The notes: generated by a model from the letters alone, not told the origin. DNA of 64,000 bases from Candidatus Doudnabacteria bacterium (GCA_023245895.1 JAHFJJ010000002.1:3348-67347), one strand, 5' to 3'; numbered from the stretch's first letter, positions 7,990 to 24,043 are shown. Program-made: numbers and translations.

Positions 7990-8110
7990 AGTCTTTATAT
8001 AACGTGCTTGTGGATAACTCTTGACAAAATTTAATAATTAGGATATAGTACGGGTACATTTGGCAGTAGTGCCATATGACATCAACTGCAGGACCTAGCG
8101 CCGAAAGGTG

Positions 8111-8957: not shown

Positions 8958-11075
8958 CTAAATTTGCCTTCGCTTATCAATCTCCTTTCGCAAAAAACCT
9001 AACGCGTAGGGCAGGGCAGTAGCCGGTTTATCTGTGGAAAATGCAAAAATATTCTTGTTTTTATCTTTCAAAGGTTCAATATAGGAAGCGGTTACGGCCT
9101 CGGCTTCTTCCTGGTCATCGCCGTATCCGATTATTAAAAAAATAACCTGGCCGTCTTCCTCAATTTGCTGCATAACCGGGGCTATGCCCTCGCGGTTGCC
9201 TTGGCCGTCCGTAAACATAATAATTATTTTGATGACGTTATCTTTATTCAAGGCTAAAGCTTCGTGGACTTGCTTAACCGCGGCCACTTCGTCAGTACCG
9301 CCGCCGACTTGCGATAAGCGGTCTACAATCTTAATTTCTTTTTCGTCGCTCAAACGCTCTTCCAGCTTACTGACGCGCTCCGCCGCGGTTGAGTATTTAG
9401 TTACGCCGACCTGGAAAGGCTGCTCTTCGTCCGGGATAAGCAGGTTTTCCGCTTCCAGGTCTTTTAAAACCAGTTTGAAACTCTCCACAATAATAACGCC
9501 CATATCGGTGGACTTTTCAATCTTTTCGCCAAACATGGACTCCGAGGTGTCGTAGAGCAGTTCAAGCTGGGTTTGCAAAAATTGCGGATTGCGCACGAGC
9601 CTCATTTTGGTATCGGGGTCAAGCTCGCCGGTTAAAATTGCGGCTACGTGCTCATATTCCAAGCCCGGCACAATTTCGCCTTCGCGCTTGAGGTATTCAA
9701 TTTTTTTGCGTCTGTCGTCTAAAAATATTTCTGCCAAAACCGCGGCAGTAGACATAATTTCCGAAGGGTATTTTTCTTTGGTCCGCTCCCAGCTTTCTAT
9801 AGATTCCTGGCGGACTTGCATGCCTTCGGCCAGGCCTCTTTGGCGGCGCGCGCGGTCTAAGTCCCGCAAGGCTTCTGCCCGCGCCGCAAGCGCGTCCGCG
9901 CCGCGGTCGTCCTTAGGCGGGGCTACTGGAACTTTAGGCCCCTCTTTGCCCAGTATGCCCTCCAGTTCTTTCATTGCCTCGCCAAACTTTTCCCCATCCT
10001 CTTTGGAAGGCGCCTGGCTGGCATATTCTTTAGCTGCTTCTTCCAGTTCTTTGAGCAACTGGTTTTTTAGTTCTTCAATTTCTGCTTTGGTCAAAGGCAC
10101 GTCCGAAGTATCCCTGCCGGGCTTACCCGGCTTGCCGCCTTTGCCTTTTTGCCCTTCGCCTTTTTGTTTTTGCCGCTCTTCTTTTCGCTTCTCCAGCTCG
10201 GCAGTCATCAGCTTAAGGTACTCCGGCAGCCAGACTTGCTCGTAAGCCTGCATTTTACGCTCTAGACTGCGTTTTTGTTCGCCCTCTTTGGCAAAATAGG
10301 TGTAAGCCTGCCAATCCATGGTTGTGGACAGGGCTCGGCTGTCAATAATCCTGCGGAACGATTTATACACATCATCATCCAATTTTTTTCCAACCTCGGG
10401 GTCTTCATTAAAACGGTGCCTTAAAATAGACTGCAAAAGCTGTTGGGGTTTGGAATAATTTTTATATGTCTCCGGCGGCTTGTCCTCGGTATTAAGCGCG
10501 CGCACCGCGTTGCGGATTATAGTATAAGGCCGCCTGCCGGCAAAGGACTCCAGCCAAACATCAGCCACGGCATTATTGACATTGCCGTGAACCGCCCCTA
10601 AAAAGCGCTGTTCAGCGTTTGCGTCCCCTCTATATGCCTCGGGTATGGGCACATGTTTTAGGTTGCCAAGTAGCCTGTCCTGCAGTTCAGTAACTTCCGG
10701 AGCGTGGTGGAAAGCTTCGTGGTAAAAAAATCCTTTAGCCTCTGCTGGCTGCCAGGGCTCTACTCCAAATTCAGGCGCGCCGGTCGCGTGGATGGGATTA
10801 TAATAAATGGTTTTAGTGTTCAAGTTCGTATAACCGGACTTTAACACGCCTGTCTGGCGGAATTCCTGTTCAAGCGCCGGGTCCGGCCGGAACGAAAACC
10901 CGCCCGAAGCGCTGGAAAGCATTTTTAAATGCTCCGGGCTAATGACCTTTTCCATTTCCAAAGGCGGCCGTCCCGGTTTTTTTTCGCCCTTCCCATCCGG
11001 CGCGTCTGGAGGAAGCGGCGGTTGGTTTTGGCCCATTTCGTATTGTGCTGATTGCTTTTCGGATTTTTCGCTCAT
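8958..11075 (-). CDS. vWA-domain protein with an N-terminal HExxH (putative metallopeptidase) region, the MoxR-partner type
   Basis: 705 aa. N-terminal FFYHEAFHH holds the HExxH motif. The C-terminal vWA has the MIDAS motifs DTSES (DxSxS), GGGTD and FTDGQGN. A central Lys/Glu-rich low-complexity linker contains GKPGKPG. Confidence 0.8.
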   Translation of the reverse strand: MSEKSEKQSAQYEMGQNQPPLPPDAPDGKGEKKPGRPPLEMEKVISPEHLKMLSSASGGFSFRPDPALEQEFRQTGVLKSGYTNLNTKTIYYNPIHATGAPEFGVEPWQPAEAKGFFYHEAFHHAPEVTELQDRLLGNLKHVPIPEAYRGDANAEQRFLGAVHGNVNNAVADVWLESFAGRRPYTIIRNAVRALNTEDKPPETYKNYSKPQQLLQSILRHRFNEDPEVGKKLDDDVYKSFRRIIDSRALSTTMDWQAYTYFAKEGEQKRSLERKMQAYEQVWLPEYLKLMTAELEKRKEERQKQKGEGQKGKGGKPGKPGRDTSDVPLTKAEIEELKNQLLKELEEAAKEYASQAPSKEDGEKFGEAMKELEGILGKEGPKVPVAPPKDDRGADALAARAEALRDLDRARRQRGLAEGMQVRQESIESWERTKEKYPSEIMSTAAVLAEIFLDDRRKKIEYLKREGEIVPGLEYEHVAAILTGELDPDTKMRLVRNPQFLQTQLELLYDTSESMFGEKIEKSTDMGVIIVESFKLVLKDLEAENLLIPDEEQPFQVGVTKYSTAAERVSKLEERLSDEKEIKIVDRLSQVGGGTDEVAAVKQVHEALALNKDNVIKIIIMFTDGQGNREGIAPVMQQIEEDGQVIFLIIGYGDDQEEAEAVTASYIEPLKDKNKNIFAFSTDKPATALPYALGFLRKEIDKRRQI

Positions 11076-11140
11076 ATGCTATTATACTTAAATTTTTTAA
11101 TTTTCGGTACTTCGTTAAGTTTACTATGTATATCTCATTT

Positions 11141-11947
11141 TTAAAACTTTTTTGATTCAGGGATTTTAGAAGCGGCAATGCCTTGGTCTCGTTCTGGCAT
11201 TACCAATTCCAAACCCTCATCACCTATTTTAATTTCTTGAGCGGCTAAAATTTTCAAGCTCCTTGCAAGTTTAATAAAATTAAACCAATCATCAGCGTCT
11301 CTATATTCCCCAAGTTTCCTCTTCATTTTTTTCCAGGTTTTTTGGTCCGGTTGACAGTCAATTGGTACGCTTAAAAGTTTAATACGCGCCGCGAATTCAA
11401 CATACTCTTCCAGGTTCGAGGTTCGCTTTTCTTCCAATTCCATTTTCATGCCTTCAATCACCCGCTTATCTATACCCAGTTCCGCATCGGGTTTGAACAA
11501 CTTTAAACTCCCCGCCTCATAAGCAAAGTTCCAAAATTTATTGGCTGAACGAAGCGCCTGATTTTTGGACCTTTTTATGCTTCTTACTCCTGCGGCTACG
11601 GCTTTTTTTATAATCTCCTGGTCTGCGCTTATTTTAAGCACCCTTAAACAAGCTAAAAAACCTACATTTTCATAGGAACCGAAATCGGTGGTGGATTTTT
11701 GTTTTAACATTGCTTCTAATCCCCGGCGCCAGCTGTCGGTTAATTGGAATTTAATATTGGGATCCAGAATTTTTAAACTTAGCATATGATCTACGCTACC
11801 TGAGCTTTGGGAAAATGATTGCATTGCCCGCCAGTCTTCCTGCGTGACTTCAGTAGCGGTGTCAAAAGTTCCCGCAGGCCTTTCCTGCTCAACGCTGAAA
11901 TTTTTTATATTCAGTTCTTCCGCCGGAATTCGCGTTTCAATAGCCAT
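11141..11947 (-). CDS. tandem-array paralog 13 (most distal) of the 'M-A/S-I-E-x-R-I ... K-x-F' family
   Basis: 268 aa. Starts MAIETRIPAEELNIKNF and ends KIPESKKF. Confidence 0.8.
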   Translation of the reverse strand: MAIETRIPAEELNIKNFSVEQERPAGTFDTATEVTQEDWRAMQSFSQSSGSVDHMLSLKILDPNIKFQLTDSWRRGLEAMLKQKSTTDFGSYENVGFLACLRVLKISADQEIIKKAVAAGVRSIKRSKNQALRSANKFWNFAYEAGSLKLFKPDAELGIDKRVIEGMKMELEEKRTSNLEEYVEFAARIKLLSVPIDCQPDQKTWKKMKRKLGEYRDADDWFNFIKLARSLKILAAQEIKIGDEGLELVMPERDQGIAASKIPESKKF

Positions 11948-11951
11948 AAAA

Positions 11952-12815
11952 TTAAAACTTTTTTACTTCGGGCAGATCTTGGGTTTTAGCCCCAACTTTA
12001 GGCTCAGGCATTTTTATTTTTAAACCCGCTTCCGTAACCCTAACCTCCTCGGCCGCAAGAATACCTGCATCGGCAATAAGCACAACAGCCTCTCTTATAT
12101 TCCCGTCGCGCAGGTAATCGCTGATTGTCGTTCTAATCCCATCCCAGGCTTTGGCCGTTACCCTTATTTCTTTTAGTACATCGGGCGCGCCGACTTTTAA
12201 CAGCATTGCGTAATTAGTAAAATTAGCCCACTCCTCCGCCTGGCCGTAATCTTTTACAGACTGCACCATTTCCAAATCCGGGTCAAGGACTTCTTCCCGC
12301 AGGTCCAAAGGCATTTTATTTGGGTACAGTACTTTTAGCGCAATTTGTGTTTCAATTTGGTTCGCCGATGTGTCGAGGCTATTTTCTTTAGCCATTTCCC
12401 ATAAACCTTCGCCGTCTATGCCGTATTGGGAAAATTTGTCAGGCGCAAAAATTTTCAGGACAGCCGCATCCTGAACCGCATAGCCCAGTACGTCGACGTC
12501 GCATAATTCCCCATCGTCCACAAATCTAGCATAATTCTTCCAAAATTGTTTTTCCACAATTTCCTGGCATTTTTCGGCTACTTCTTTAATTTTTTCCGGG
12601 TTCATTTGCAGTAAAACGGTTAAAGCCCAGGCGGGGTAGTCTTCTGTTTCAGCATATTTTGAAGAATTATATTTTTCCAAATAATCTTTAATTTGCTTCC
12701 ACTCCTCTTCTTTGACATCGCGGATCGGATCAAATTCAACAGCCATCTCCAGCCTGTCAATGCTAAAATCCCTAATATTGAGTTCTTGGGTATTGATTCT
12801 TTCTCCGATGGCCAT
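11952..12815 (-). CDS. tandem-array paralog 12
   Basis: True start MAIGERINTQELNIRDF (ATG at 12813-12815); the ORF track extends it to 12944. Ends PEVKKF. Confidence 0.8.
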   Translation of the reverse strand: MAIGERINTQELNIRDFSIDRLEMAVEFDPIRDVKEEEWKQIKDYLEKYNSSKYAETEDYPAWALTVLLQMNPEKIKEVAEKCQEIVEKQFWKNYARFVDDGELCDVDVLGYAVQDAAVLKIFAPDKFSQYGIDGEGLWEMAKENSLDTSANQIETQIALKVLYPNKMPLDLREEVLDPDLEMVQSVKDYGQAEEWANFTNYAMLLKVGAPDVLKEIRVTAKAWDGIRTTISDYLRDGNIREAVVLIADAGILAAEEVRVTEAGLKIKMPEPKVGAKTQDLPEVKKF

Positions 12816-12816
12816 A

Positions 12817-13659
12817 TTAAAAATTTTTAGTTTTAGGAACCGGGGGCGTTTCCAGGATTTTTGGTTTTGGCTTGCTTTGCAGGTGGAGTCCCGATTGGTT
12901 AATTTCAATTTGGTCTGCTGAAATAATCGCAAGTTCACACGCAAAATCCAACTGGTCTTCAGGCGGCATGCTATGAAACTTTGTTTTTATTTCTATCCAC
13001 TCGGTTTCGTCCACAGCCTGTAAGTCAAACTTGCCAGGCAAAATAACGCGCAGGACGGCCAGTTGGCTTACCAAACTCCGCCAGGACTTTTTAGAGCGGC
13101 TTAATTTAATTGAACCTTGCAACTCCGGCAAAAAGTCTTTGGCTAATTTTAGCTTGTTGTTAGGCGTTAGGATTTTTAGGTTTTTATAGACTTCCTGGGT
13201 CAGACTGCCTGAGCCGACGCCTGCACAAAATTCAATTGCTTTATTTCTCGCGGCTAGTGGCAGTAAAAAATCCGGCATAATTTTTTTAATGGAGTATGCC
13301 GCGCGGATGAGCGTATCGGTGGTAGCGGCAGTCTCCCCGTTGGAATTTTTTTCAACCAGATATTCCCAGGTTTTTTCCAGCCCTTCTCTTAATTTCGTCA
13401 TTTGACCAGAGGACAGCCTTTTTAAAGTTTCCGCCTTCAAGAAACATAAATTGCCTAAGTTTTTTAGACGGTGGGGAACAACACTGCCTGAGGCAAGCCA
13501 GGGTAAATCTTCGGCAGCTAAATTTTCAAAAACTTTCCACTCCCGCTCGTAAATATCTTTTTTCGGGTCAAAGCCCGCGGTGTTGCCGGCTTGCTCTCTC
13601 TCGATGCTCAAACCTTTAATATTTAATTCTTCCCTAGGAATTCTATATTCAATAGGCAT
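12817..13659 (-). CDS. tandem-array paralog 11
   Basis: Starts MPIEYRIPREELNIKGL and ends PVPKTKNF. Confidence 0.8.
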   Translation of the reverse strand: MPIEYRIPREELNIKGLSIEREQAGNTAGFDPKKDIYEREWKVFENLAAEDLPWLASGSVVPHRLKNLGNLCFLKAETLKRLSSGQMTKLREGLEKTWEYLVEKNSNGETAATTDTLIRAAYSIKKIMPDFLLPLAARNKAIEFCAGVGSGSLTQEVYKNLKILTPNNKLKLAKDFLPELQGSIKLSRSKKSWRSLVSQLAVLRVILPGKFDLQAVDETEWIEIKTKFHSMPPEDQLDFACELAIISADQIEINQSGLHLQSKPKPKILETPPVPKTKNF

Positions 13660-13661
13660 AT

Positions 13662-14447
13662 TTAAAAGTTTTTAGTTTGCGGGACAGGTTGCGTGCTGGT
13701 GAGCGGCACTTGTTCTTCCGCCATAACCAATTCCAGCCCCTTGTCTGTAATTTTTACTTCTTTGGCGGCTAAAATTGACATGCTATAGGCAAGCATAAGG
13801 CTGTCAAGGTCCGTTTGGACTGTTTTTTGGAGGGTTGTTTTCATTGCTTTCCAGTCAGCTTTGCTTATTGCAGTCTTGGCAAATTCTTCCGGAAACAAAA
13901 TTTTTTCCCTGGCCGAGTAGGAAGCAAATAACCTGGGGGCGTGTAATTGTTTATCGGGCTCAAATTTCATATGCTGGAGCCACATACCGGCCTTTTCCGG
14001 AAACAGGATTTTCATATTTTTTGCCATTTCCCTGTAAGTTTGGTCCTTTTTAGCCAATCTTGTGTCGTGAAGCTTTTGAATAATCTTGCCTAAATAATTG
14101 TCCAGGTTTTTTGATTTAACCACTTCCGGCCATAATTGTTTAATGGTAGCGCCCAGTGAGGCAACGTCATACCATTGGTTTCGTCTTATGGCCTCGGAAA
14201 GGTCGCGGTCAGCCGCGTTTTTTTCTTGTTCCTGCGCGGGCAAAGCGCCGGGCTGCATGGTCCTAAGTCGGGCCAAGTAAGTATAGCCGCCTCTAGAAAG
14301 ACCATTAATAGCCAATTTAATTTTCCGCCATTGTTGCGGACTCAAATCCCGCGCGGGGTTAAACACCGCCCGGGTTTCCGCCCTATGCTCGGTGTGGAAG
14401 CTTTTAATATTCAAGTCTTGTTGTGGAATTCGTTGTTCTAAGGACAT
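13662..14447 (-). CDS. tandem-array paralog 10
   Basis: True start MSLEQRIPQQDLNIKSF; ends PVPQTKNF. Confidence 0.8.
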   Translation of the reverse strand: MSLEQRIPQQDLNIKSFHTEHRAETRAVFNPARDLSPQQWRKIKLAINGLSRGGYTYLARLRTMQPGALPAQEQEKNAADRDLSEAIRRNQWYDVASLGATIKQLWPEVVKSKNLDNYLGKIIQKLHDTRLAKKDQTYREMAKNMKILFPEKAGMWLQHMKFEPDKQLHAPRLFASYSAREKILFPEEFAKTAISKADWKAMKTTLQKTVQTDLDSLMLAYSMSILAAKEVKITDKGLELVMAEEQVPLTSTQPVPQTKNF

Positions 14448-14448
14448 A

Positions 14449-15279
14449 TTAGAAGTTTTTAATTTGGGGGATTTCTGGAGCTTTTTGCATAGTATTTTTT
14501 TCAGGCATAACAATTTCCAGGCCGTTGTCGCCAATTTTTGCTTCTTTGGCGCCAAGAATGGTCATTTCTTTTAATTTATAGCACGTGTAATAAAAGTCCC
14601 CATGAATAAGGCTGGATTCAACTGACTGCTTAAAATTTTTTTTCATCTCTTTCCAGTCGCCTGGGCCTATAACCAAGGCGTCCGGATAGCTCATTTTTAA
14701 GCTGGCGGCATCATTCCTAATAAGCTCCCAATATTTTTCCCGCTTTGCCTTTTGTGTTTTAAAATCAGCTAATATAATGTCTTTTGGTACCATATATTCT
14801 GGAGTAACTTCATCCGGAAATAGGATTTTCAAATAACAGTAAGTACGGGGAGAAAAGTTGTTTCTGATAGGGTTTAATTTTATTTTTTGCCATAAAGGGG
14901 CTAGTTTGGCTGTTAGGTTTTCAGCAGCAAAAGTTTCGGGGTCCAGCCTCTTGAGTTCAGCGGCGTCGACAAAAGGGTCGGTAATACTTTGCCCGGGCTC
15001 TTCTGCCTTTAGCAAGTCTTTTGTAAATTTTGATATTATCCTTTGCCTGCAAACTTCAGCCATATCCGGGAACAGTTCAGGATTAATCCCTTTTAAGAAT
15101 GTTAAAGTTCCTATTGGCAGTGCTTGGCTGTCGGCTGTTAAAATAAACTCTCTTAACGCCTTCCATTGCTCGGGAGTAACCTCTTCCATGGGATTAAACT
15201 CGATATTTACTCCCCGCTGTTCCAGGCTGAACTCCCTGATATTCAGTTGTTCGGTATTTATCCGTTGGTCTAAGGACAT
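14449..15279 (-). CDS. tandem-array paralog 9
   Basis: True start MSLDQRINTEQLNIREF; ends PEIPQIKNF. Confidence 0.8.
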   Translation of the reverse strand: MSLDQRINTEQLNIREFSLEQRGVNIEFNPMEEVTPEQWKALREFILTADSQALPIGTLTFLKGINPELFPDMAEVCRQRIISKFTKDLLKAEEPGQSITDPFVDAAELKRLDPETFAAENLTAKLAPLWQKIKLNPIRNNFSPRTYCYLKILFPDEVTPEYMVPKDIILADFKTQKAKREKYWELIRNDAASLKMSYPDALVIGPGDWKEMKKNFKQSVESSLIHGDFYYTCYKLKEMTILGAKEAKIGDNGLEIVMPEKNTMQKAPEIPQIKNF

Positions 15280-15280
15280 A

Positions 15281-16093
15281 TTAAAAATTTTTAATTTTTG
15301 GCAGGGTTGATTTAGTTTCGGCTTCAAAAGCCGCGGGTCGGGTTATTTCCAAACCATTTTCGGTAATCTCTATTGCAGGGGCTGTGGCAATAAGCAAGTT
15401 AAAGGCATCTCCCACAAGTTCAGAAGGATGAGTTTTGTTTTTCTTTAGGTGTTTTTTCATTGCTTGGACAAATTCTGGCCCAAGCTCGGGCTTAAACCAA
15501 GGGTCAATAGTTCTAATACAGGCGCCATATTTAAAAATATCTGAAACCGAGGAGCCTGGCCTGGCTTTTAGAGCATCAAAGTCTTCCTTAAAAATTACAT
15601 CCGGCCCCGCATCTAAGTTGGGCAGGAAAATATAATCGTTTAATTGCAAACCGGTTATTTTCATATCGGCAAAAACTTGCATACTGTAGAAAGGGGCGTC
15701 GCTTTTCAGAAATTTATCTATTGAGTTAACTTCTTTCGCCGTAAAATTAAATTCATAGTTTATTGGCTTTAAAATTTTTAGTGCCGCTAGCGTATCGAAA
15801 AATTGATCCCAATGCTCTAACATCCTGCTTTCTCTCACTACCGCCATAGTTCTCTCTTCCCATTCAGGGTCGAAGTTAATTGCGATTGCCGGATTTAAGA
15901 GCTTTATTTTAGAAGCAATCCGGGCGGAGTCATCGGGCTTAAATTCTTTATTTTCCTCCATTACCTGCAAAAGATCGTCCCACTGCTCAGCACTAATATC
16001 CCGCTCTGGGTCAAAGCTCTCGTTATTCCACTCCTGAAAATTAAAGTCTTTAATATTTAGTTGTTCGGTATTTATTCGTTTGTCTAAGGACAT
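15281..16093 (-). CDS. tandem-array paralog 8
   Basis: Starts MSLDKRINTEQLNIKDF and ends LPKIKNF. Confidence 0.8.
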   Translation of the reverse strand: MSLDKRINTEQLNIKDFNFQEWNNESFDPERDISAEQWDDLLQVMEENKEFKPDDSARIASKIKLLNPAIAINFDPEWEERTMAVVRESRMLEHWDQFFDTLAALKILKPINYEFNFTAKEVNSIDKFLKSDAPFYSMQVFADMKITGLQLNDYIFLPNLDAGPDVIFKEDFDALKARPGSSVSDIFKYGACIRTIDPWFKPELGPEFVQAMKKHLKKNKTHPSELVGDAFNLLIATAPAIEITENGLEITRPAAFEAETKSTLPKIKNF

Positions 16094-16094
16094 A

Positions 16095-16886
16095 TTAAAA
16101 AGTTTTAAATTGCGGGAGAGCGCCGGCAGGCTCAGCCAGCTCGCCCGAGGAAATGGTTAATTCCAGGCCATTGTCTGTTATTTTTATTTCCTCGGCCGAA
16201 ATTATGCCCATATAGTAGGCCAGTTTAATGGCCCTTAAATAATCACGGCTGTTTTGGCGCTTTTCAAAAAGAATTTGGAATTCGTATTTCATTTTTTTCC
16301 AGTTTTCTTTGGACACAGGGGCTTTTTTAAATTTTTCCGGCGCGACAATTTTTTGGCTGGCCTTAAAGCCGGCGTAGGTTTCGGCAAATTGGTATTCAGG
16401 TTCGGTATTAAGCTCTGGAATTTTAAATTTTTCTGCTTTGTCCGGAAACAGTATGGTTAATTCCCTGGCCATTTGTATCCTATTGACTTCGCCAAACTTT
16501 CCTTCCAAAGCCAGCGCCAGTTGGTCCAAATCACCTTCAAGGCCTATGGCTTTAAACTCTTTTGGATAAAGCTGCTTCATCGCAAGCGCTATTTTTGGCA
16601 CTGCCCGCCAGTTGTCTTTGGCCATCAAAGCCTCTAGTTCGTCGCTAACAACCGACTTGGTGGAAGGCTTGTCTACTATTTTGTATAAACAGCCCGGCCT
16701 TATAGTCCTTAGTTCCGCCAAAGCCGTCCAGGACAAATGGGTATTCATAAAACTTTCAATAATTTTCCATTGCTCGGGCGTAATATCCCTGTTTAAATTA
16801 AACTCCTGGGGTGCCTCCTGGACGCCAAGGTTTAGGTCCTTTATATTTAAATCTTCTGAATCTAATACGCGGTTTTCAATAGCCAT
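16095..16886 (-). CDS. tandem-array paralog 7
   Basis: Starts MAIENRVLDSEDLNIKDL and ends ALPQFKTF. Internal repeats include AMKQLYPKEF and LTILFPDKAEKF. Confidence 0.8.
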   Translation of the reverse strand: MAIENRVLDSEDLNIKDLNLGVQEAPQEFNLNRDITPEQWKIIESFMNTHLSWTALAELRTIRPGCLYKIVDKPSTKSVVSDELEALMAKDNWRAVPKIALAMKQLYPKEFKAIGLEGDLDQLALALEGKFGEVNRIQMARELTILFPDKAEKFKIPELNTEPEYQFAETYAGFKASQKIVAPEKFKKAPVSKENWKKMKYEFQILFEKRQNSRDYLRAIKLAYYMGIISAEEIKITDNGLELTISSGELAEPAGALPQFKTF

Positions 16887-16888
16887 AG

Positions 16889-17731
16889 TTAGAAATTTTT
16901 AATTTTCGGAATTGCCGGCGTTGCCTGGCTTATTTGGGCGTTGTTTGACAGCTCCATGCCGTGGTTTGTAAATTTCACCTCTTTGGCCGCCATAGTAGCC
17001 AGCCATTCGGCTAAGTTTATATACTGTAAACAGTCATGGCCGCTTTGGCAATTGTCTAATTTTTCAAAAAGTTGGGTTTTCATAGCTTCCCAGTTTTTTG
17101 CGGTAATTTTTACTTTCGCGAATTCTTCCGGAAACAAAATTTTCAACAGGGCCGCGCTTTTGCAAAACATATACCAATTGCCGCCTTTATTTTGCGCCAT
17201 ATCTTGTTTCAATAGCGAAACGTCGTTGTCCTTCAACAGGTCTTTTTCTTGGCCAGGGAAAAGAATTTTAAAATAAAGAACGTTGTCTAAATCTACTGTA
17301 CCCCGGCCTGTTATTTTAGGCTTCCTTAAGGCTTCGGCCATTCGTTCGCGATATTGCTCGGCCAATGCTTGCGAAAACCTTTCCGGAAATAAGGTTTTCA
17401 TTTCGGCAAAATTACCAAGCAAATTATCATAGCCCATTTCTCCCCGCTCGCAATGGCGTAAAATGGTTTTGGCGAATTTATCCATCTTCTGCCATTTTTT
17501 ATTGTCAGATTTTTCAAATAGTCTTTTTGGTTCAATCACCTGCAAACTTGCCAAATAAAGGTCAACATTTTCTTTTCGCGCAGACCGTTCCATTTTATCC
17601 CATTGCGCTTTGCTCAAATCCCTTACCGGATCAAAAGGTACATCCTTAGAAGACTCCGCCGAGGGCAACTGCTCCAGGTTTAACGAGCTAATATTCAATT
17701 CTGCCGGGTTAACCCGCTGTTCTATGGACAT
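16889..17731 (-). CDS. tandem-array paralog 6
   Basis: True start MSIEQRVNPAELNISSL; ends PAIPKIKNF. Confidence 0.8.
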   Translation of the reverse strand: MSIEQRVNPAELNISSLNLEQLPSAESSKDVPFDPVRDLSKAQWDKMERSARKENVDLYLASLQVIEPKRLFEKSDNKKWQKMDKFAKTILRHCERGEMGYDNLLGNFAEMKTLFPERFSQALAEQYRERMAEALRKPKITGRGTVDLDNVLYFKILFPGQEKDLLKDNDVSLLKQDMAQNKGGNWYMFCKSAALLKILFPEEFAKVKITAKNWEAMKTQLFEKLDNCQSGHDCLQYINLAEWLATMAAKEVKFTNHGMELSNNAQISQATPAIPKIKNF

Positions 17732-17732
17732 A

Positions 17733-18530
17733 TTAAAATTTTTTAATTTCAGGAATACGCGAACCAAGTTCCGGTAATTTTTGTACTGCCGGCGACAGTT
17801 CCAGTCCCCTATTCGTAAATTTCAGCTCGCTCGCGGAAATAATAGCCATGTCCCTGGCCAAAGTTATGGCTTTGTCTAAATTCGTGCCTTTTAATTCCGC
17901 GCGCAAGTCTTGTTGCATTCCTTTCCAGGCATTGTCGCCGATGTTTTGAATATTAAAACGTCCAGGAAATAAAATCCGTAATGTGGCCATATCTACAGCT
18001 AAGCTTGGCCAATTTTTGAGTTTTTTTGAAAGACCAATGTTTAGGGTAATAGCAGTAAAATCTTCTTCGTTTACTTCCACTCTTTCAGGCAGCAACCTTT
18101 TCATTCGAGTAGCAAGGTCAAAATAAAGAGCGTCATTCCAATGCCTTAACGCAATGTTTTCCAAGTCCTCGCGGGCAATAAATTTTTCCCACTGGTCAGG
18201 CCATAACTGCCTAATTGACGCGGCGACATCCAAAAAAACCAGCTGGGCTTGAACGTGATTTACTTCCTTTACTCTCCTGGAAATCTGCTCGCTTAGTTCC
18301 GGGTTGGTTGCCGGATTGGGGAGGTTGGGAAAGCTTTCAGGCCTTATTAAGCGCAAATCCGCAATTCTTTCCCAGACATGGTAAGTTTGCTCTACTTCCT
18401 TCGCGTCTGCTTCCATGCGCCGCCAGTCGTCGGGTTTAATATCAAATTCCAGCAAGCCTTTTTCCGGAGTCTGGATATTAAAGTTCTTTATATTCAATTC
18501 TGCCGGGTTAACCAGCTGTTCTATGGACAT
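17733..18530 (-). CDS. tandem-array paralog 5
   Basis: Starts MSIEQLVNPAELNIKNF and ends RIPEIKKF. Confidence 0.8.
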   Translation of the reverse strand: MSIEQLVNPAELNIKNFNIQTPEKGLLEFDIKPDDWRRMEADAKEVEQTYHVWERIADLRLIRPESFPNLPNPATNPELSEQISRRVKEVNHVQAQLVFLDVAASIRQLWPDQWEKFIAREDLENIALRHWNDALYFDLATRMKRLLPERVEVNEEDFTAITLNIGLSKKLKNWPSLAVDMATLRILFPGRFNIQNIGDNAWKGMQQDLRAELKGTNLDKAITLARDMAIISASELKFTNRGLELSPAVQKLPELGSRIPEIKKF

Positions 18531-18531
18531 A

Positions 18532-19365
18532 TTAAAAATTTTTAATTTCGGGCGTCGGTGGAGTCGCGGTTTCTGATTGTTTTTTTGGCATCACCAACTC
18601 CAAGCCCTGCTCTGTAATTTTAATTTCCTGGGCGGCTATCATTGCAAGGTCGCGGATCATGCCGGCTTGGTCCACGCTTTTAGTCTTTCCCTGGGCCAAT
18701 AAAAACTTTAAATGACTTCGCCAAATTTCCCAGGTTTGGCAATCAACTTTTAACTTTTTGGCGTCATCCGGAAGCAAAGCCTTAAAGGCCGCAAAATACG
18801 CGAGTTTTAAGCTAAAATCATCAGCCATAACCTGTTGCAAGGGTTCATTTATAGGTTCTCCTTTTGCCAGAGTTTCCAACCAGGGATCTGTGGGTATTTT
18901 ATCTAAACTGAGTTCACCCGCCCGGTCGGGAAACAGAACCCTCATATCAATTAAAAATCCCGGACCTACGTCGCCTGATGCCAGCTGCTCATTTCCTTTA
19001 CGCCACAGTTTCGGGGCGGTTCTAAAAGTTAGCGGTTCAAATTTATCCGGAAAAAGTTGCTTAAACCCCGCGTATTCCGTAACCACGGAATACCAAAGGT
19101 TTTCGTCAATTAACCCTTGAATCCTCCTTTTAAAAATATCACCCTCCGGCACCGGAATATGGGTAAACTTATCCGGCCGTACTTGCCGAAGCACAGCCAG
19201 CATGCCATAAAAGGCGGGATTGTCAGATATGGTTTGGCTTAAAAGTTCCCAATCCCTTTCGCTCACGTCCCGCTTAGGATCAAATTCAACGCCGGCCTGC
19301 GGCTGTTCCAGGTTCAGTTCTTTTATATTCAATTCTTGCCGATCAATCCGTTTTTCTATGGACAT
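18532..19365 (-). CDS. tandem-array paralog 4
   Basis: True start MSIEKRIDRQELNIKEL; ends PTPEIKNF. Confidence 0.8.
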   Translation of the reverse strand: MSIEKRIDRQELNIKELNLEQPQAGVEFDPKRDVSERDWELLSQTISDNPAFYGMLAVLRQVRPDKFTHIPVPEGDIFKRRIQGLIDENLWYSVVTEYAGFKQLFPDKFEPLTFRTAPKLWRKGNEQLASGDVGPGFLIDMRVLFPDRAGELSLDKIPTDPWLETLAKGEPINEPLQQVMADDFSLKLAYFAAFKALLPDDAKKLKVDCQTWEIWRSHLKFLLAQGKTKSVDQAGMIRDLAMIAAQEIKITEQGLELVMPKKQSETATPPTPEIKNF

Positions 19366-19366
19366 A

Positions 19367-20203
19367 TTAAAAATGTTTAGCTTCCGGCAGCGGCGAGTCC
19401 GCTGTGAAATTTGTTTCCGGTAAAATAATAACTCCGCGTTCATCAATATGTGCGTCCGGGCAGGATAAAATTTTTAAATAACTTCCGACCCTCATCAGTT
19501 CGTAGGGAGCCCCCTGTTCTAGCCAAAATTTTTTAATGCCGCTCCAGTCTCGCGCTTTAATTAGGGGTTTTACATCCGGAGCCATTAACTTTAACGCTAC
19601 TGCTTTGGCTAAATCCGCACTTAAATGGAATTTTGAGTTGGGTGTTATAGCGAAAGATGTTTTTTTCATCTCCTCTATGGCTTTTTCCATAACTTGAGTC
19701 CATCGCATGCCTTTTAAATGCTGGGGAAAAACTTGCACCGCTTCCAAATGCTCATAGGGAAACGCAAGCGAACTTTCAATGCGGTCGTCAACCAGCTTCC
19801 AGTTCTCTTCCGAATTCCACTTTTTCCAAACATCGGTCCGCTCAGGAAACAGCCTTTTATATGCAGACGCGATACCTAAAAATTGCTGTACAGAAGGGCG
19901 GCTGCCTGTAGTCAGAGGCATTTCATTTGCCGCGGCTTCAAGAGCGCTGGCTAATTTTTCTGAAACTTGCGCATCGGGAAACAAAAATTTATAATTCGCC
20001 AAATAATCGGGCTTTTGCCCGAAAGCCGGCCTGCCTTCTTCCCAGTCACCGCTTATCCTAAGAAAGTTTTGCAGGCAGACCTCTCTGGTATTTTTTGGAA
20101 TTTCAACCTCGGGGTTAAATTTAAACCCGTCCACAGGCTCCTGTTCAAAGCTCAGCTCCTGGACTTTTAATTCGTTCGGGTCAATGCGTTTTTCAATGGC
20201 CAT
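19367..20203 (-). CDS. tandem-array paralog 3
   Basis: Starts MAIEKRIDPNELKVQEL and ends PLPEAKHF. Confidence 0.8.
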   Translation of the reverse strand: MAIEKRIDPNELKVQELSFEQEPVDGFKFNPEVEIPKNTREVCLQNFLRISGDWEEGRPAFGQKPDYLANYKFLFPDAQVSEKLASALEAAANEMPLTTGSRPSVQQFLGIASAYKRLFPERTDVWKKWNSEENWKLVDDRIESSLAFPYEHLEAVQVFPQHLKGMRWTQVMEKAIEEMKKTSFAITPNSKFHLSADLAKAVALKLMAPDVKPLIKARDWSGIKKFWLEQGAPYELMRVGSYLKILSCPDAHIDERGVIILPETNFTADSPLPEAKHF

Positions 20204-20204
20204 A

Positions 20205-21011
20205 TTAAAAATGTTTAGTTTCCGGAGGGCCGGTTTTGTTGTCAGTCTGCATTTCTGTTAAATTGCCCAACTCCAGGCCATTGTTTGTAACTTTTACTGT
20301 AGAAGCCGAGGCAATAACTGCGTTTACCGCATTTTCTGAAACCGGGAAAAGATCTGTTAATTCTGTCCCTGCCTTTAGTACTCCTTTTATAGCTTGGAAG
20401 TGTTTGGGTGTTAATTCAGGGTCAAAATTAGGTTTAACAATTCTCATACTGGCGGCGAAGCGGAATAGTTTTTCAATGGGCGCCTTCTCTTTCATTTCAG
20501 CCATGGTGGCTTCCAAAACACCCCAAAACTCCGGCGTAAGATATTTGTCCATAGGCAGGCCAATAATTTTTATTTCCGCTAAATGCAGCAATTGATAATA
20601 AGGTTCCATATTCGGGTCTGTCAGGAACACTTCTATAGACTCCGCTTCTTCCTGGCTGAATACAAATTTTTTTGAAGGCTGTAGAATCTTGATTGCTAAA
20701 GCTAGCGGTAAAAAGTCGCCCCACTCTTCGTCTTTTTTGTCAGTTTGTAATTCGTTTTCAATTTTAGTAAATTCTTCAGTCTCGATTTTTGGAGCTTCGT
20801 TTGGATACAAGATTTTGAGGTTTGCAGACATTAACGCGACATAATATCTACTACTTCCAGCCCTATAAGATTCTAAATCTCTAAACAAGCCCTGTTTTTG
20901 GCTTTGACTGAAGTCTCTTTTTGGATTAAAAAGGAAAGGCTGTTGCTTTTCGTTGAGGCTCAGTTCTTTGATATTCAGCCCTTCTTGGCTTATTCGTTTT
21001 CCAATAGGCAT
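20205..21011 (-). CDS. tandem-array paralog 2
   Basis: True start MPIGKRISQEGLNIKEL; ends GPPETKHF. Confidence 0.8.
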   Translation of the reverse strand: MPIGKRISQEGLNIKELSLNEKQQPFLFNPKRDFSQSQKQGLFRDLESYRAGSSRYYVALMSANLKILYPNEAPKIETEEFTKIENELQTDKKDEEWGDFLPLALAIKILQPSKKFVFSQEEAESIEVFLTDPNMEPYYQLLHLAEIKIIGLPMDKYLTPEFWGVLEATMAEMKEKAPIEKLFRFAASMRIVKPNFDPELTPKHFQAIKGVLKAGTELTDLFPVSENAVNAVIASASTVKVTNNGLELGNLTEMQTDNKTGPPETKHF

Positions 21012-21012
21012 A

Positions 21013-21876
21013 TTAAAAATGTTTAATTTGTGGGGCGTCAAATTTTGGCTTTCCGATGGGTGTAACCGGCATAACAAATTTAATCCTATTGTCTTCAACC
21101 ACAATGCGTTCCGCGGCCAAAGCTTGCAAAGTTGCCGCAACATTTAAAAATGTAGTCCAATTGCCCCTCTTCCGCCATCCTTCAAGGATGTCCCTTAGTT
21201 TTTTTACAGGCGGCAATTTCCCCTGCCAATGTGCGGCAAGTTCCGGGAAAGCGTACTTAATAGCGGCGGTTCTATTGATAAGCACGGAAGTTTCGTTTAA
21301 GTGTTTTTTGTTGTCACTATATTGTTTGTAAGCCCATTCCCAGGCAGTGGCACAAAACTGTTTTGCTTCTTCCGGCAGAGGTTCGGTCGGATAACAAATT
21401 GCGAAATTTTTAATTAACTTTACACCCTCATCAATCCAGTTGGTTGTCGTGTAATACAAAACGCTTTCTTTTAAAAGCTTAAATATTTCCGGGTTTTTTA
21501 AAATTTGCGCGCAATTCTGCGGGAACAAAATTTTCATCATCATTAGAGCCTCTGCTAGTTTTCCCGGTTTGCTTTCAGTTAAGTGTTGTTCTATTATAGT
21601 TTTTAAATTTTCTTCCTTAACAAAAGTTTTATTCTCATATGGAAAGTGCAAAAGCTGCGCGGGCGCCAAATAGTAGATGCTGGCGTACAAGTCATTTTCC
21701 GCTCTGGGCGCGCCGGAAGCTTTTTTAAAACTTACCAAAGACTCCAATATCCTGGTTTTGTCTGAATCTGTTATGTCGCGATTGGCATCAAATAAAATTT
21801 CAGTACTTTGGGAGCTTTCCAAAGATAAATCCTGAATTTTTATTTCTTGCGGATCAATCCGTGTTTCTATGGCCAT
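21013..21876 (-). CDS. tandem-array paralog 1 (first after the ATPase)
   Basis: True start MAIETRIDPQEIKIQDL (ATG at 21874-21876); ends DAPQIKHF. Confidence 0.8.
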   Translation of the reverse strand: MAIETRIDPQEIKIQDLSLESSQSTEILFDANRDITDSDKTRILESLVSFKKASGAPRAENDLYASIYYLAPAQLLHFPYENKTFVKEENLKTIIEQHLTESKPGKLAEALMMMKILFPQNCAQILKNPEIFKLLKESVLYYTTTNWIDEGVKLIKNFAICYPTEPLPEEAKQFCATAWEWAYKQYSDNKKHLNETSVLINRTAAIKYAFPELAAHWQGKLPPVKKLRDILEGWRKRGNWTTFLNVAATLQALAAERIVVEDNRIKFVMPVTPIGKPKFDAPQIKHF

Positions 21877-21919
21877 AGTCTTAAAAAACAAGCCGGAGTT
21901 TCCGCTCCGGCTCGTTAGG

Positions 21920-24043
21920 TTAAAATTGCTTTGCCGCGGGCACGAATTCGGTGGTGGCAAAACCCTGCAAACCGCGGATTTGCTTTATTATTTCTTCAAA
22001 ATCTTTTTTAGTGTCTTCCGAAGCCTTTTTGCGCTCATCATAAGCTTCCTGGCCAATATAGCCCATGATTTTGTCTTTTAATTTTTCGTCATCCATAAGA
22101 ATGCCTACGCTGGTAAGCATATCCACAACCGCTTTGGGGTTTTCACTGCCTTCAAATTGCTTGTAGCTTTCCACCATCACCTGGTAAACCGCTTCGTCAA
22201 AGGACATTTTGCTTGCCTGATAGAGCGGTTTTTTGTTTTTTGCGTCGCGGTAGAGAACAAGTTTTTCCCCAAGGTCCCGGATGGTACGGTAAGAAAGCGG
22301 AATCGTCTGCCTTTTGCCTTCCAAAAAAGAGCGTATTTTAGGAAAGGCTTCGTTAATTAAGGTGTAAAGTTTTCCTAAGTCTTCTTTAGAGCGCAAGAAT
22401 GTGCCGTCGGGGTTAGCCAGCGCGGAAAGCGACACCAACATTTCCTCTTTGCGTGGCGGGTAGGGAATTTCCATAACTTTGCCTTCGGCGCGCGAAGCCA
22501 AAGCTTCCGGGACTTCAAAGACACCATGCTTGCGTTCAATGTTGGCGGTAAAATACATCCTCCAATTATCGGGAATCGGAATACGCTCATCGTTATCCGC
22601 AAAATACCAATCCTCCCCGGGTTTGGCAGTTAAAAGCCCGTAAATTAAGCTCCAGTTTTTGTTTTTGTTAAATTCGTCCATTAGCACGCTGTCCCCCCGC
22701 CTTAGGGCCGCTGTAATAACCCCGTCGCGCCAGCCGTTCTTTTTGACAATATGCGCGAACTTTTTGGCCAACTCCCCGCGGAAAGCCGCCTCGGCCATGT
22801 TTACAACTTTGGTTTGTAAGTCGCGCAATTGCGGTACATCTGCTGCCTTGGTTTTTTCAGCTGCCTGCAAAGATTCCTGTATTTGGGCTATTGCTGTAAC
22901 AGCCGCCTCGTCCGGATTGAGATGCAAAGTTTCCCCAAGGAGCTTGCTGTGTTCGGAAACAAAATCCCTAAATTTTTCAGGATCCAGTCCTCGAAGGTCA
23001 TCGCTCAGCTTATTATAGTACTCAGTTGGGTCTTTAAATTCCAAAGATTTTGAACCGTAGAGCATGTAGCGGGTTACATCTTCGGACAAATCAAGATAAA
23101 CATAATTCCTGCCTTTTTCTTCCAGGTAATGGCGGACAAGCGTGGTCTTGCCCACGCCCGGAGGCCCAACTAAAACGCCGCCGACTGTGGTGCGCTGGTG
23201 CTGGGTTTCCCATTCATGGAGCATGTTTAAAGAATGGATGACGCTTTGCGTTTCCACTACATCTTCGCCTTCTGAAAATTGTTTTAAAACAGTTTCTATT
23301 TCTTCTTTGCCGGAAAAATACCTGACCATGGGGTCTTCCCACAGTTCCTCTATTTTAGCCCTGGCCGCGGCGAGTTCTTCTTGCAGCTGCTTTTTTGAAC
23401 GCGGAAGTTTGCGCTCTTTTTGAGTTTTAAATTCTTTTAAGGCGTTTACATACTCCTCTGATTCCTCATCAAAAATAGTTTTTAGCGCCTGTTCAATATT
23501 GTTGACATCGTCAGTTTGGACTTCGTCTGAAACCGACTGGCGCTGGCTTACGGCCTCGGCGCGGGCGTAAGAAATATCATCCAGGCCTTCGGCGCTGGCA
23601 AAGCTTGCCTGCTCAAGCAAGCCTGAAAGTTGGGTCGCGGTTTTAAGGCTATTTTTAAACTCTAAATAGTCAAGCTTCGAGCGGATGTATTCCCTATAGG
23701 CTTTTTCAAAAGACAGCTTTTCTTCGTCGCCCAGCCAGCCTTCAATTTCCGTTTTTTTGGCCTTATAATGTTGGGCGGCTAAAAATCTGTCATCGGCGCT
23801 TTTTGCAGACTTAACAATGCTCCTCAAATCCTGGGCTTGTTTTATCAAGAGCTGGAATTGTTCAATAGCTTTAAGGCGCAAATCACGTTCAAGTTCCGGG
23901 ACATTTTCCAAAGCTTGCTCGCGGGCTTCCCTTAAAACCCTATTTGCTTCAGGCTGTGTTTTTGTCTTTCTGCTTTCCTTTGCGGCGGCTTTTACTTCGG
24001 GCACTTCCCCACCCAAATGACGCGGCAATAGACGTTCGGGCAT
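21920..24043 (-). CDS. AAA+ ATPase (MoxR/AAA_5-like core with a long coiled-coil N-terminal region), first gene of the operon
   Basis: 707 aa. Walker A is GPPGVGKT and Walker B is DSVLMDEFNK, the DE-x-N-R/K signature of the MoxR/dynein-related clade. About 160 aa are inserted between the two Walker motifs. The C-terminus ends ...VPAAKQF, a K-x-F tail like that of the downstream paralogs. Confidence 0.8.
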   Translation of the reverse strand: MPERLLPRHLGGEVPEVKAAAKESRKTKTQPEANRVLREAREQALENVPELERDLRLKAIEQFQLLIKQAQDLRSIVKSAKSADDRFLAAQHYKAKKTEIEGWLGDEEKLSFEKAYREYIRSKLDYLEFKNSLKTATQLSGLLEQASFASAEGLDDISYARAEAVSQRQSVSDEVQTDDVNNIEQALKTIFDEESEEYVNALKEFKTQKERKLPRSKKQLQEELAAARAKIEELWEDPMVRYFSGKEEIETVLKQFSEGEDVVETQSVIHSLNMLHEWETQHQRTTVGGVLVGPPGVGKTTLVRHYLEEKGRNYVYLDLSEDVTRYMLYGSKSLEFKDPTEYYNKLSDDLRGLDPEKFRDFVSEHSKLLGETLHLNPDEAAVTAIAQIQESLQAAEKTKAADVPQLRDLQTKVVNMAEAAFRGELAKKFAHIVKKNGWRDGVITAALRRGDSVLMDEFNKNKNWSLIYGLLTAKPGEDWYFADNDERIPIPDNWRMYFTANIERKHGVFEVPEALASRAEGKVMEIPYPPRKEEMLVSLSALANPDGTFLRSKEDLGKLYTLINEAFPKIRSFLEGKRQTIPLSYRTIRDLGEKLVLYRDAKNKKPLYQASKMSFDEAVYQVMVESYKQFEGSENPKAVVDMLTSVGILMDDEKLKDKIMGYIGQEAYDERKKASEDTKKDFEEIIKQIRGLQGFATTEFVPAAKQF

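What the first reader, a model, noticed from the sequence alone, without database searches (positions are those of the whole stretch)
8958..24043. A 15-kb operon: AAA+ (MoxR-like) ATPase, 13 tandem diversified paralogs, and a vWA/HExxH protein, a candidate novel multi-client ATPase system
All 15 genes lie on the minus strand with TAA-N-ATG junctions, so this is one transcription and translation unit. The first gene is a 707-aa AAA+ protein with Walker A GPPGVGKT and Walker B VLMDEFNK, a MoxR/AAA_5-type signature, and a long coiled-coil N-terminus. The last gene pairs an HExxH motif (YHEAFHH) with a vWA MIDAS domain (DTSES...GGGTD...FTDGQGN). MoxR ATPases and vWA partners are known to work as chaperone and activation pairs, for example RavA-ViaA, CbbQ-CbbO and NorQ-NorD. 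Between them sit 13 paralogous ORFs of 261-287 aa that I cannot assign to any known family. That arrangement suggests an ATPase-vWA machine acting on a diversified set of client, cargo or effector proteins.
Basis: partly seen in the sequence, partly recalled or inferred. Interest (0 to 1): 0.92.

Follow-up and report, generated by a model that had tools for sequence, protein, structure and literature searches.

The report
MoxR–VWA machine with diversified paralog array
This stretch of a small bacterial genome (probably one of the Patescibacteria, also called CPR) carries a protein-remodelling motor of the MoxR family and its VWA-domain partner, and between them 13 fast-changing copies of one helical protein that share tags at both ends; related genomes carry the same arrangement, which points to one machine serving a changing set of partner proteins.

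Summary
On the minus strand, window 8958–24043 holds, in order of transcription: a 707-aa AAA+ ATPase (21920–24043), 13 tightly packed paralogs of 261–287 aa (21876 down to 11141; stop–start gaps of 1–4 nt), and a 705-aa VWA protein (8958–11075). Foldseek puts the ATPase core with MoxR clade-7 proteins (NorQ, CbbQ). The VWA domain keeps an invariant MIDAS metal site and sits behind a CobT/NorD-like N-terminal domain and linker. The paralogs are all-helical repeat proteins with no known family. Their middles are highly diverged (15–22% identity), but they share a disordered N-terminal motif and a C-terminal tail of the form PE-x-[RK][RK]F-COOH. The ATPase's own C-terminus carries a similar tail, which seems to change along with the paralog tails from lineage to lineage. 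The same ATPase + paralog array + VWA layout recurs in at least 6 independent loci from CPR metagenomes and 2 reference genomes. In each genome the array appears to have expanded on its own. The system is rare (about 1% of the phylum genomes sampled). Best reading: one MoxR–VWA remodelling machine dedicated to a diversified repertoire of client or partner proteins, probably for conflict or host interaction. This is a new variant of the known MoxR–VWA kind, not a member of the VMAP systems.

The parts
21920..24043 (-). MoxR-clade AAA+ ATPase, 707 aa: N-terminal all-helical domain (about residues 1-280), AAA+ core with Walker A 23144-23167 and Walker B 22664-22687, arginine finger R518 (22490-22492), C-terminal tail ...PAAKQF
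   Evidence: Pfam AAA_5 4e-11; NCBIfam GvpN 7.7e-8; AlphaFold model pLDDT 80; Foldseek top hits NorQ and CbbQ, TMt 0.63-0.70; 70 homologs 36-61% identical in CPR
21013..21876 (-). paralog 1 (287 aa), all-helical repeat protein with conserved N-terminal motif and C-terminal tail ...PQIKHF
   Evidence: alignment A1; hmmsearch
20205..21011 (-). paralog 2 (268 aa)
19367..20203 (-). paralog 3 (278 aa)
18532..19365 (-). paralog 4 (277 aa)
17733..18530 (-). paralog 5 (265 aa)
16889..17731 (-). paralog 6 (280 aa)
16095..16886 (-). paralog 7 (263 aa)
15281..16093 (-). paralog 8 (270 aa)
14449..15279 (-). paralog 9 (276 aa)
13662..14447 (-). paralog 10 (261 aa)
12817..13659 (-). paralog 11 (280 aa)
11952..12815 (-). 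paralog 12 (287 aa)
11141..11947 (-). paralog 13 (268 aa)
8958..11075 (-). VWA partner protein, 705 aa: N-terminal domain with conserved HExxHH (10704-10721) and conserved E176 (10548-10550), charged linker, C-terminal VWA domain (residues about 506-658) with MIDAS DxSxS 9537-9551, T 9294-9296, D 9207-9209
   Evidence: Pfam VWA 4.5e-12; MIDAS and HExxHH nearly invariant across 21 homologs; N-domain structurally resembles N-domains of CobT-like VWA proteins (atlas TM 0.60-0.67)
24103..24132 (-). sigma-70-like promoter match upstream of the ATPase (weak evidence)
   Evidence: consensus scan, 10/12 match; such matches were only slightly above the shuffled expectation

Best explanation
This is a dedicated MoxR–VWA protein-remodelling machine of CPR bacteria. 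It serves a lineage-specific, fast-diversifying repertoire of all-helical partner proteins encoded between the two genes. The inferred mechanism follows the solved MoxR–VWA pairs (NorQ–NorD, CbbQ–CbbO, CobS–CobT). The ATPase forms a hexameric ring. The VWA protein docks on it, with its N-terminal domain on the ring periphery and its VWA domain on the concave face. The metal-loaded MIDAS, kept intact here, captures a peptide segment of a partner. ATP hydrolysis then twists or stretches the partner, changing its conformation, assembling it into something, or releasing it. The most likely recognition handles are the conserved, disordered N-terminal motif and the C-terminal PE-x-[RK][RK]F-COOH tail shared by all paralogs, whose variable helical middles could each carry a different binding specificity. 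The ATPase's own C-terminus carries a tail of the same form that seems to co-vary with the paralog tails. It may compete for the same site and set a threshold. Because the repertoire is expanded per lineage, fast-diverging and patchily distributed, the system probably works at an interface of conflict or host contact (CPR cells live attached to host bacteria). That role is inference. Shown: the gene layout, the MoxR-clade fold, the intact MIDAS and ATPase motifs, the co-conservation of all three parts and the conserved termini. Inferred: that the paralogs are bound and remodelled, and the biological role.
For: Foldseek places the ATPase with clade-7 MoxR proteins NorQ and CbbQ, and Pfam's best hit is AAA_5. 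Walker A and B, the sensor-1 region and arginine finger R518 are intact and invariant across 27 homologs. The VWA MIDAS DxSxS-T-D is invariant across 21 homologs. The N-domain–linker–VWA layout matches CobT (atlas; CobST preprint 10.64898/2026.10.09.757910). The same ATPase + paralog array + VWA layout recurs in L008 (11 paralogs), L010, L011/L012, L013/L014, L036, L037, G271 and G298. Paralog termini are conserved and disordered (pLDDT under 50 to about 60) while the middles diverge. The paralog tree shows per-locus expansions and long branches. The ATPase and paralog tails resemble each other within 6 of 7 lineages. The family is rare and patchy: 4-5 of 401 phylum genomes, none of 40 close relatives. 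MoxR–VWA systems with a variable helical third protein are a known conflict-system theme (Kaur et al. 2020, PMC7159879).
Against: No binding between the paralogs and the VWA or the ATPase has been shown (the complex-prediction job gave no answer). No structure of the complex exists. The tail co-variation rests on few lineages and has an exception (L013 ATPase ends ...PQVVKT). No expression data were found. The biological role is unknown. One related genome (G256) has the MoxR–VWA pair without paralogs, so the pair may also act on other targets.
Confidence: 0.5

Rival explanations
1. A divergent member of the VMAP-type MoxR–VWA ternary conflict systems (Kaur et al. 2020). The paralogs would play the role of the VMAP third component, and the MoxR–VWA pair would be a threshold switch that re-arranges a complex when it senses something.
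For: Shared MoxR–VWA core; a third component with a variable all-helical region; per-lineage diversification and patchy spread fit a conflict system.
Against: The paralogs lack the conserved VMAP-C alpha+beta domain: they are all-helical with only a C-terminal beta-hairpin. The ATPase lacks the VMAP-system N-terminal WxhapG and PsWRxa motifs. Gene order differs (MoxR, then paralogs, then VWA here; VMAP, then MoxR, then VWA there). The VWA protein has no C-terminal effector domains. The host lineage is not multicellular.
Confidence: 0.2
2. An assembly chaperone: the MoxR–VWA pair builds a multi-paralog complex or structure (a heteromeric shell, coat or filament) from the paralogs, loosely as the MoxR-like GvpN helps assemble gas vesicles from paralogous proteins.
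For: NCBIfam's best hit for the ATPase is GvpN. Many co-encoded paralogs with shared termini could be assembly units.
Against: The paralogs are not GvpA-like small proteins, and no GvpF/L, GvpO or other gas-vesicle or shell Pfam families are present. Strong sequence diversification argues against structural units that must pack together precisely.
Confidence: 0.15
3. A metal or cofactor insertion machine (NorQD, CoxDE, CobST type) whose true client enzyme is encoded elsewhere, with the paralogs as accessory factors.
For: Closest solved structures are NorQ and CbbQ. The VWA layout matches CobT and NorD.
Against: No cofactor-dependent enzyme is encoded in or near the operon. The paralogs co-vary with the system and are tightly coupled to it.
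Confidence: 0.1
4. An ATP-dependent proteolytic system: the N-terminal domain of the VWA protein is a zincin-like metallopeptidase (HExxHH plus a downstream Glu), with the MoxR ring unfolding paralogs or other targets for cleavage.
For: HExxHH at residues 119-124 and E176 are nearly invariant across 21 homologs. Weak structural resemblance of the N-domain to ATLF and SprT zincins (TM about 0.3).
Against: The stronger structural match is to CobT-type N-domains (TM 0.6-0.67). MoxR ATPases are not known to feed proteases. No peptidase Pfam family was found.
Confidence: 0.1

Closest known systems
NorQ–NorD (MoxR AAA+ and VWA partner; nitric oxide reductase FeB insertion)
   Same: Clade-7 MoxR AAA+ fold (top Foldseek hits). 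Partner is a separate protein with an N-terminal domain, linker and C-terminal VWA carrying an intact MIDAS. Likely ring and VWA docking mechanism (PMC13036017).
   Different: No nitric oxide reductase or other cofactor enzyme nearby. The ATPase is much larger (707 vs about 270 aa), with a roughly 280-aa N-terminal helical domain and a roughly 100-aa helical insertion. Many diversified paralogous partners are co-encoded.
CobS–CobT (cobaltochelatase motor)
   Same: The VWA protein has CobT-like architecture: N-terminal domain, charged linker, C-terminal VWA (atlas structural match of the N-domain; CobST preprint).
   Different: No CobN or tetrapyrrole substrate. The ATPase is not a BchI/CobS-type chelatase ATPase by best structural match. 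Partner array present.
CbbQ–CbbO Rubisco activase; RavA–ViaA
   Same: MoxR ATPase paired with a VWA co-chaperone that remodels a client protein.
   Different: The clients here would be a co-encoded, diversified family of all-helical proteins rather than one enzyme complex.
VMAP-type MoxR–VWA ternary conflict systems (Kaur et al. 2020, eLife, PMC7159879)
   Same: MoxR–VWA core plus a third component with a variable all-helical region. Diversification and patchy spread suggest a conflict role.
   Different: No VMAP-C domain. No VMAP-specific MoxR N-terminal motifs. No VWA-fused effector domains. Different gene order. Many third-component paralogs in one locus. Found in CPR rather than multicellular bacteria.
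Esr pathways of oral Actinobacteria (PMC13622651)
   Same: MoxR–VWA signalling built around variable sensor proteins, in the context of Patescibacteria–host interaction.
   Different: That is the host's sensing system (with beta-propeller sensors, kinases and FHA proteins). Here the system is encoded by the CPR genome itself, with helical repeat paralogs and no kinase or FHA parts.

Membership tests
MoxR clade AAA+ (AAA_5 / clade 7) | Walker A GxxGxGKT and Walker B hhhhDE(F/I)N | tested here: met
   GPPGVGKT and VLMDEFNK; invariant in 27 homologs
MoxR clade AAA+ (AAA_5 / clade 7) | Fold closest to solved MoxR-clade proteins | tested here: met
   Foldseek top 16 hits NorQ and CbbQ, TMt 0.63-0.70
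MoxR clade AAA+ (AAA_5 / clade 7) | [quoted passage not shown] | tested here: inconclusive
   The model has one strand after alpha1 and a large roughly 100-aa helical insertion before Walker B. The H2i hairpin was not identified with confidence.
MoxR clade AAA+ (AAA_5 / clade 7) | arginine finger and sensor 1 present | tested here: met
   R518 and sensor-1 region FTAN invariant in alignment A2
MoxR–VWA partner (NorD/CbbO/CobT/ViaA type) | intact MIDAS DxSxS...T...D | tested here: met
   D509 S511 S513 T594 D623 invariant across 21 homologs
MoxR–VWA partner (NorD/CbbO/CobT/ViaA type) | N-terminal ATPase-binding domain plus linker plus C-terminal VWA | tested here: met
   VWA at 506-658 with a charged linker before it. 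N-domain structurally like CobT-type N-domains, TM 0.60-0.67.
MoxR–VWA partner (NorD/CbbO/CobT/ViaA type) | VWA finger that enters the ATPase pore | not testable with these tools
Classical MoxR–VWA cofactor-insertion systems | a dedicated client enzyme (NOR, Rubisco, CobN, CO dehydrogenase) encoded with the pair | tested here: not met
   Neighbours are helical paralogs, a NYN RNase, methyltransferases and a TPR protein
VMAP ternary systems | VMAP third component with conserved C-terminal alpha+beta VMAP-C domain | tested here: not met
   Paralog model is all-helical with only a C-terminal beta-hairpin
VMAP ternary systems | MoxR N-terminal region with WxhapG and PsWRxa motifs | tested here: not met
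   Motif scan of the ATPase
VMAP ternary systems | gene order VMAP, then MoxR, then VWA | tested here: not met
   MoxR, then paralogs, then VWA in the window; other orders in relatives
VMAP ternary systems | VWA protein with variable C-terminal effector domains | tested here: not met
   VWA domain ends about 45 aa before the C-terminus; no further domains
VMAP ternary systems | variable all-helical central region of the third component | tested here: met
   Paralog middles diverge widely and are all-helical
Gas vesicle (GvpN-containing) clusters | GvpA/J/M structural proteins and GvpF/L, GvpO | tested here: not met
   No gas-vesicle Pfam or NCBIfam families among operon proteins

The most novel reading that the evidence does not exclude
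This is a tag-dependent remodelling machine. The MoxR–VWA pair recognises a shared terminal tag (disordered N-motif and PE-x-[RK][RK]F-COOH C-tail) on a lineage-specific, fast-diversifying repertoire of helical proteins and acts on each in turn. The ATPase carries a co-evolving copy of the tag, as a competitor or self-regulator. The CPR episymbiont would use this repertoire at its host interface or against competitors or phages, making it a rare case of a single AAA+ chaperone serving a diversified, expanding client family.
Probability: 0.3. Interest if true: 0.8.

Novelty: new variant of a known kind. Interest (0 to 1): 0.62.

Why it matters
Known MoxR–VWA pairs each serve one dedicated client: NOR, Rubisco, CobN, respiratory complexes. 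Here one pair sits beside up to 13 rapidly diverging partner proteins that share terminal motifs. The arrays expand independently in each lineage and appear in several CPR lineages. If the paralogs are clients, this is a single AAA+ machine serving a variable repertoire, which would make client recognition by MoxR–VWA directly testable by simple swaps of the shared tails and the MIDAS. It would also add a conflict or host-interaction system to the small, episymbiotic CPR bacteria, whose hosts are now known to use MoxR–VWA pathways to sense them.

Tried and rejected
Pfam, PHROGs, NCBIfam and PADLOC found no family for the paralogs. Foldseek found no PDB match for the paralog model. The wide VIA-align search gave only weak (alpha/alpha)6-toroid-like matches, Z 9-10.7, below the level at which helical folds mean much. 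The atlas gave generic TPR-like matches. The search for homologous proteins with the paralog alignment returned only window proteins; the word index missed the divergent members, which the full HMMER scan found (1768 hits). The genome-contig scan with the ATPase alignment returned only distant AAA proteins and was uninformative. Complex prediction of the VWA domain (residues 470-705) with the paralog alignment gave no answer (score 0.02); this is neither evidence for nor against binding. The look-up of sequencing runs listed no RNA holder; reads from 4 groundwater runs of one study showed no variant array forms. A second copy of the tRNA-Thr 3' end (a possible integration att site) was absent from the genome. 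Synonymous codon identity at paralog termini (0.50-0.51) is only slightly above the middle (0.44) and the codon-usage expectation (0.42), so there is no clear sign of gene conversion. Rejected: phage structural origin (no PHROG or phage hallmarks); gas-vesicle system (no Gvp families); VMAP membership (several defining features not met).


Full report
Observation. The stretch 8958-24043 is an operon-like cluster of 15 minus-strand genes. Read in the direction of transcription: a 707-aa AAA+ ATPase (21920-24043), a 43-nt gap, 13 paralogs (21876 down to 11141), a 65-nt gap, and a 705-aa VWA protein (8958-11075). The paralogs' true starts are at a conserved M[SAP]IE codon; the longer TTG-started ORFs reported by the ORF listing extend upstream through the stop of the preceding gene. 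With these starts the paralogs are 261-287 aa, and 12 paralog–paralog junctions have gaps of only 1, 2 or 4 nt (TAA-N-ATG), with no Shine-Dalgarno motif. Flanking genes are housekeeping genes (ribosomal protein S2, EF-Ts, release factor, DnaE, ThrRS, CysRS, DnaB, RecR). The host genome (G000) is 1.14 Mb in 41 contigs, 91% complete. Its size, the names of homolog-bearing genomes (Parcubacteria, Daviesbacteria) and the groundwater-metagenome source point to a CPR/Patescibacteria genome; the exact lineage was not determined. A tRNA-Thr(GGT) gene lies just upstream of the ATPase, but no att-like repeat was found in the genome.

The ATPase. Pfam's best hit is AAA_5, the dynein/MoxR family (4e-11), covering the Walker A region. 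NCBIfam's best is the MoxR-like GvpN. An AlphaFold model built with 27 homologs (pLDDT 80) shows a roughly 280-aa N-terminal all-helical domain, then an AAA+ core. The core has a roughly 100-aa helical insertion before Walker B, a pre-sensor-1 beta-hairpin, a sensor-1 FTAN region and arginine finger R518; these are invariant across homologs. Foldseek's best solved matches are NorQ hexamers and CbbQ (TM by target 0.63-0.70), then McrB and Rea1. About 70 homologs, 36-61% identical and 685-780 aa long, come from CPR metagenomes and are labelled 'MoxR-like ATPase'. A sequence-profile search of the PDB found only weak ClpB or Lon matches. The ATPase lacks the N-terminal motifs that mark VMAP-system MoxR proteins.

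The VWA protein. The VWA domain sits at residues about 506-658. Its MIDAS (D509, S511, S513, T594, D623) is invariant across 21 homologs, which are 37-62% identical. A profile search of the PDB finds integrin I-domains as the closest solved VWA domains. Before the VWA domain is a charged linker and an N-terminal domain that carries a nearly invariant HExxHH (residues 119-124) and a conserved E176. In the atlas's predicted structures, this N-domain most resembles the N-terminal domains of VWA+CobT_C proteins from phages and archaea (TM 0.60-0.67); it resembles ATLF and SprT zincins only weakly (TM about 0.3). The layout (N-domain, linker, C-terminal VWA) is that of CobT and NorD. In CobST, the N-domain binds the periphery of the AAA+ ring and the VWA domain enters its concave face (preprint 10.64898/2026.10.09.757910). 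In NorQD, a VWA finger enters the pore and the ATP-driven motion stretches a linker (PMC13036017).

The paralogs. They are 15-22% identical to each other. No Pfam, PHROG, NCBIfam or PADLOC family matches them. An AlphaFold model built from the 13 (pLDDT 81) is an all-helical domain of about 12 helices with a C-terminal beta-hairpin. The conserved N-terminal motif (about 25 residues, MxIExRIxxxELNIKxL) and the C-terminal tail lie in low-confidence, probably disordered segments, while the helical middle varies. Foldseek found nothing significant in the PDB. The atlas gave TPR-like matches and the wide VIA-align search gave (alpha/alpha)6-toroid-like matches at Z 9-10.7, both weak for helical proteins. 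A full HMMER scan of 1.84 billion representatives with the 13-sequence profile found 1768 hits at E at most 1e-3, so the family is real and widespread in metagenomes. Across 61 paralogs from 8 loci, the C-terminus is almost always P-E-x-[RK]-[RK]-F/Y-COOH. A tree of 73 paralogs groups them mostly by locus: 8 of the 13 window paralogs form one clade (SH-aLRT 95). Branches are long (median 1.25 substitutions per site), and a few orthologs are shared between closely related loci. So arrays expand within each lineage and diverge fast. The junctions are conserved at the DNA level over about 78 nt. Synonymous identity there is only slightly raised, so there is no clear sign of gene conversion.

Co-conservation. 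The three-part layout recurs in independent loci. L008 (Logan assembly): ATPase, 11 paralogs, VWA. L010: paralogs, VWA, paralogs. L011/L012 (one genome in two samples): 12 paralogs divergent from the ATPase. L013/L014: ATPase, VWA, at least 10 paralogs. L037: ATPase, 4 paralogs, VWA, 2 paralogs. L036: ATPase, a fused 575-aa paralog and one more paralog. Two genomes of one genus (G271, G298) carry ATPase, paralogs and VWA side by side. HMMER confirmed all these array genes as members of the family. One genome (G256) has the MoxR–VWA pair without paralogs. One metagenome protein with two paralog-like domains (915 aa) lies in a glycosyltransferase context without the pair. In an even sample of 401 genomes of the phylum, paralogs were found in 5 and the ATPase in 4. 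None was found in 40 close relatives, including 18 of the same genus. The system is rare, patchy and accessory.

Tail co-variation. Within lineages, the ATPase's C-terminal tail resembles the paralog tails. In the window and L008 both have K at position -3 (ATPase ...PAAKQF and ...PLTKSF; paralogs ...PxIKxF). In L011, L036 and L037 both have R there (...PIPRSF...PVQRNF...PTQRNF; paralogs ...PEARRF...PVKRSF...PDVRKF). In the G298/G271 lineage both share RPERK and both have lost the terminal Phe (ATPase ...EERPERKLKAVA; paralogs ...RPERKELN). L013 is an exception (ATPase ...PQVVKT). Across 73 ATPase homologs, 39 end in Phe and 31 end in P..[RK].F. The DNA at these ends is not shared, so simple gene conversion does not explain it. 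This hints, on small numbers, that the ATPase tail and the client tails meet the same binding site.

Interpretation. By analogy with the solved MoxR–VWA pairs (established biology of NorQD, CbbQO, CobST, RavA–ViaA), I propose the following. The VWA protein docks on the MoxR ring, and its MIDAS captures a segment of a partner; the conserved, disordered termini of the paralogs are the candidates. ATP hydrolysis then remodels the bound paralog, while the paralogs' variable helical middles carry the specificity of each. The per-lineage expansions, the fast divergence and the patchy distribution are the marks of conflict systems, as Kaur et al. described for MoxR–VWA systems with a variable helical third protein (PMC7159879). 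The host of such CPR epibionts is now known to use MoxR–VWA pathways to sense them (PMC13622651), which makes a role at the host interface plausible, though untested. The system fails several defining VMAP features, so it works like a VMAP-type system without being one. The binding test was uninformative. Rivals (a threshold switch of VMAP type, an assembly chaperone, cofactor insertion into a distant client, proteolysis by a zincin-like VWA N-domain) remain open at lower odds.

Verdict. The finding is real and not an artefact. It is a new variant of the MoxR–VWA system kind, defined by an expanding, diversifying array of helical partner proteins with shared terminal tags. This merits experiment: a simple pull-down with tail deletions and MIDAS mutants would decide the central claim.

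Noticed in passing
window 24262-24337 (-): A tRNA-Thr(GGT) gene lies about 220 nt upstream of the ATPase start, between the upstream TPR gene's strong terminator (24389-24354) and a promoter-like site (24132-24103). No second copy of its 3' end (possible att site) was found in the genome.
   Followed up: partly
window 8111-8722 (-): A NYN-domain ribonuclease (Pfam NYN 7e-24; PADLOC LabA-like NYN) lies 235 nt downstream of the VWA gene on the same strand, with no strong terminator between them. It was not seen beside the system in the related loci checked.
   Followed up: partly
window 24398-25156 (-): A TPR-repeat protein (Pfam TPR_2 5.8e-12) is the next gene upstream, ending in a strong terminator (16-bp stem).
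   Followed up: no
VWA protein, window 10548-10721 (-): The N-terminal domain of the VWA protein has a nearly invariant HExxHH plus conserved D172/E176, a possible zincin-like metal site. Its structure resembles the N-domains of CobT-type VWA proteins.
   Followed up: partly
locus L009 (Logan ERR12350060), 5626-8373: A 915-aa protein with two paralog-family domains sits in a cluster with glycosyltransferases, an MreB/FtsA-like protein and a PEGA-domain protein, without the MoxR–VWA pair: the paralog fold is also used outside this system.
   Followed up: no
genome G256, contig C49: A more distant MoxR–VWA pair (30-35% identity) with no paralog array detected, though its ATPase still ends in a ...PVAKSF-type tail.
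   Followed up: partly
window 11141-21960, junctions between paralogs: About 78-nt junction segments (end of one gene plus start of the next) are 60-86% identical at the DNA level and lack Shine-Dalgarno motifs; the stop codons sit inside AT-rich 'AAAATTAAAAATTTTTAAT' runs.
   Followed up: partly
window 1-64000: Four tRNA genes (Trp, Thr, Tyr, Thr) and housekeeping genes (rpsB, tsf, dnaE, thrS, cysS, dnaB, recR, adk, map) show the window is chromosomal, not on a plasmid or phage.
   Followed up: no
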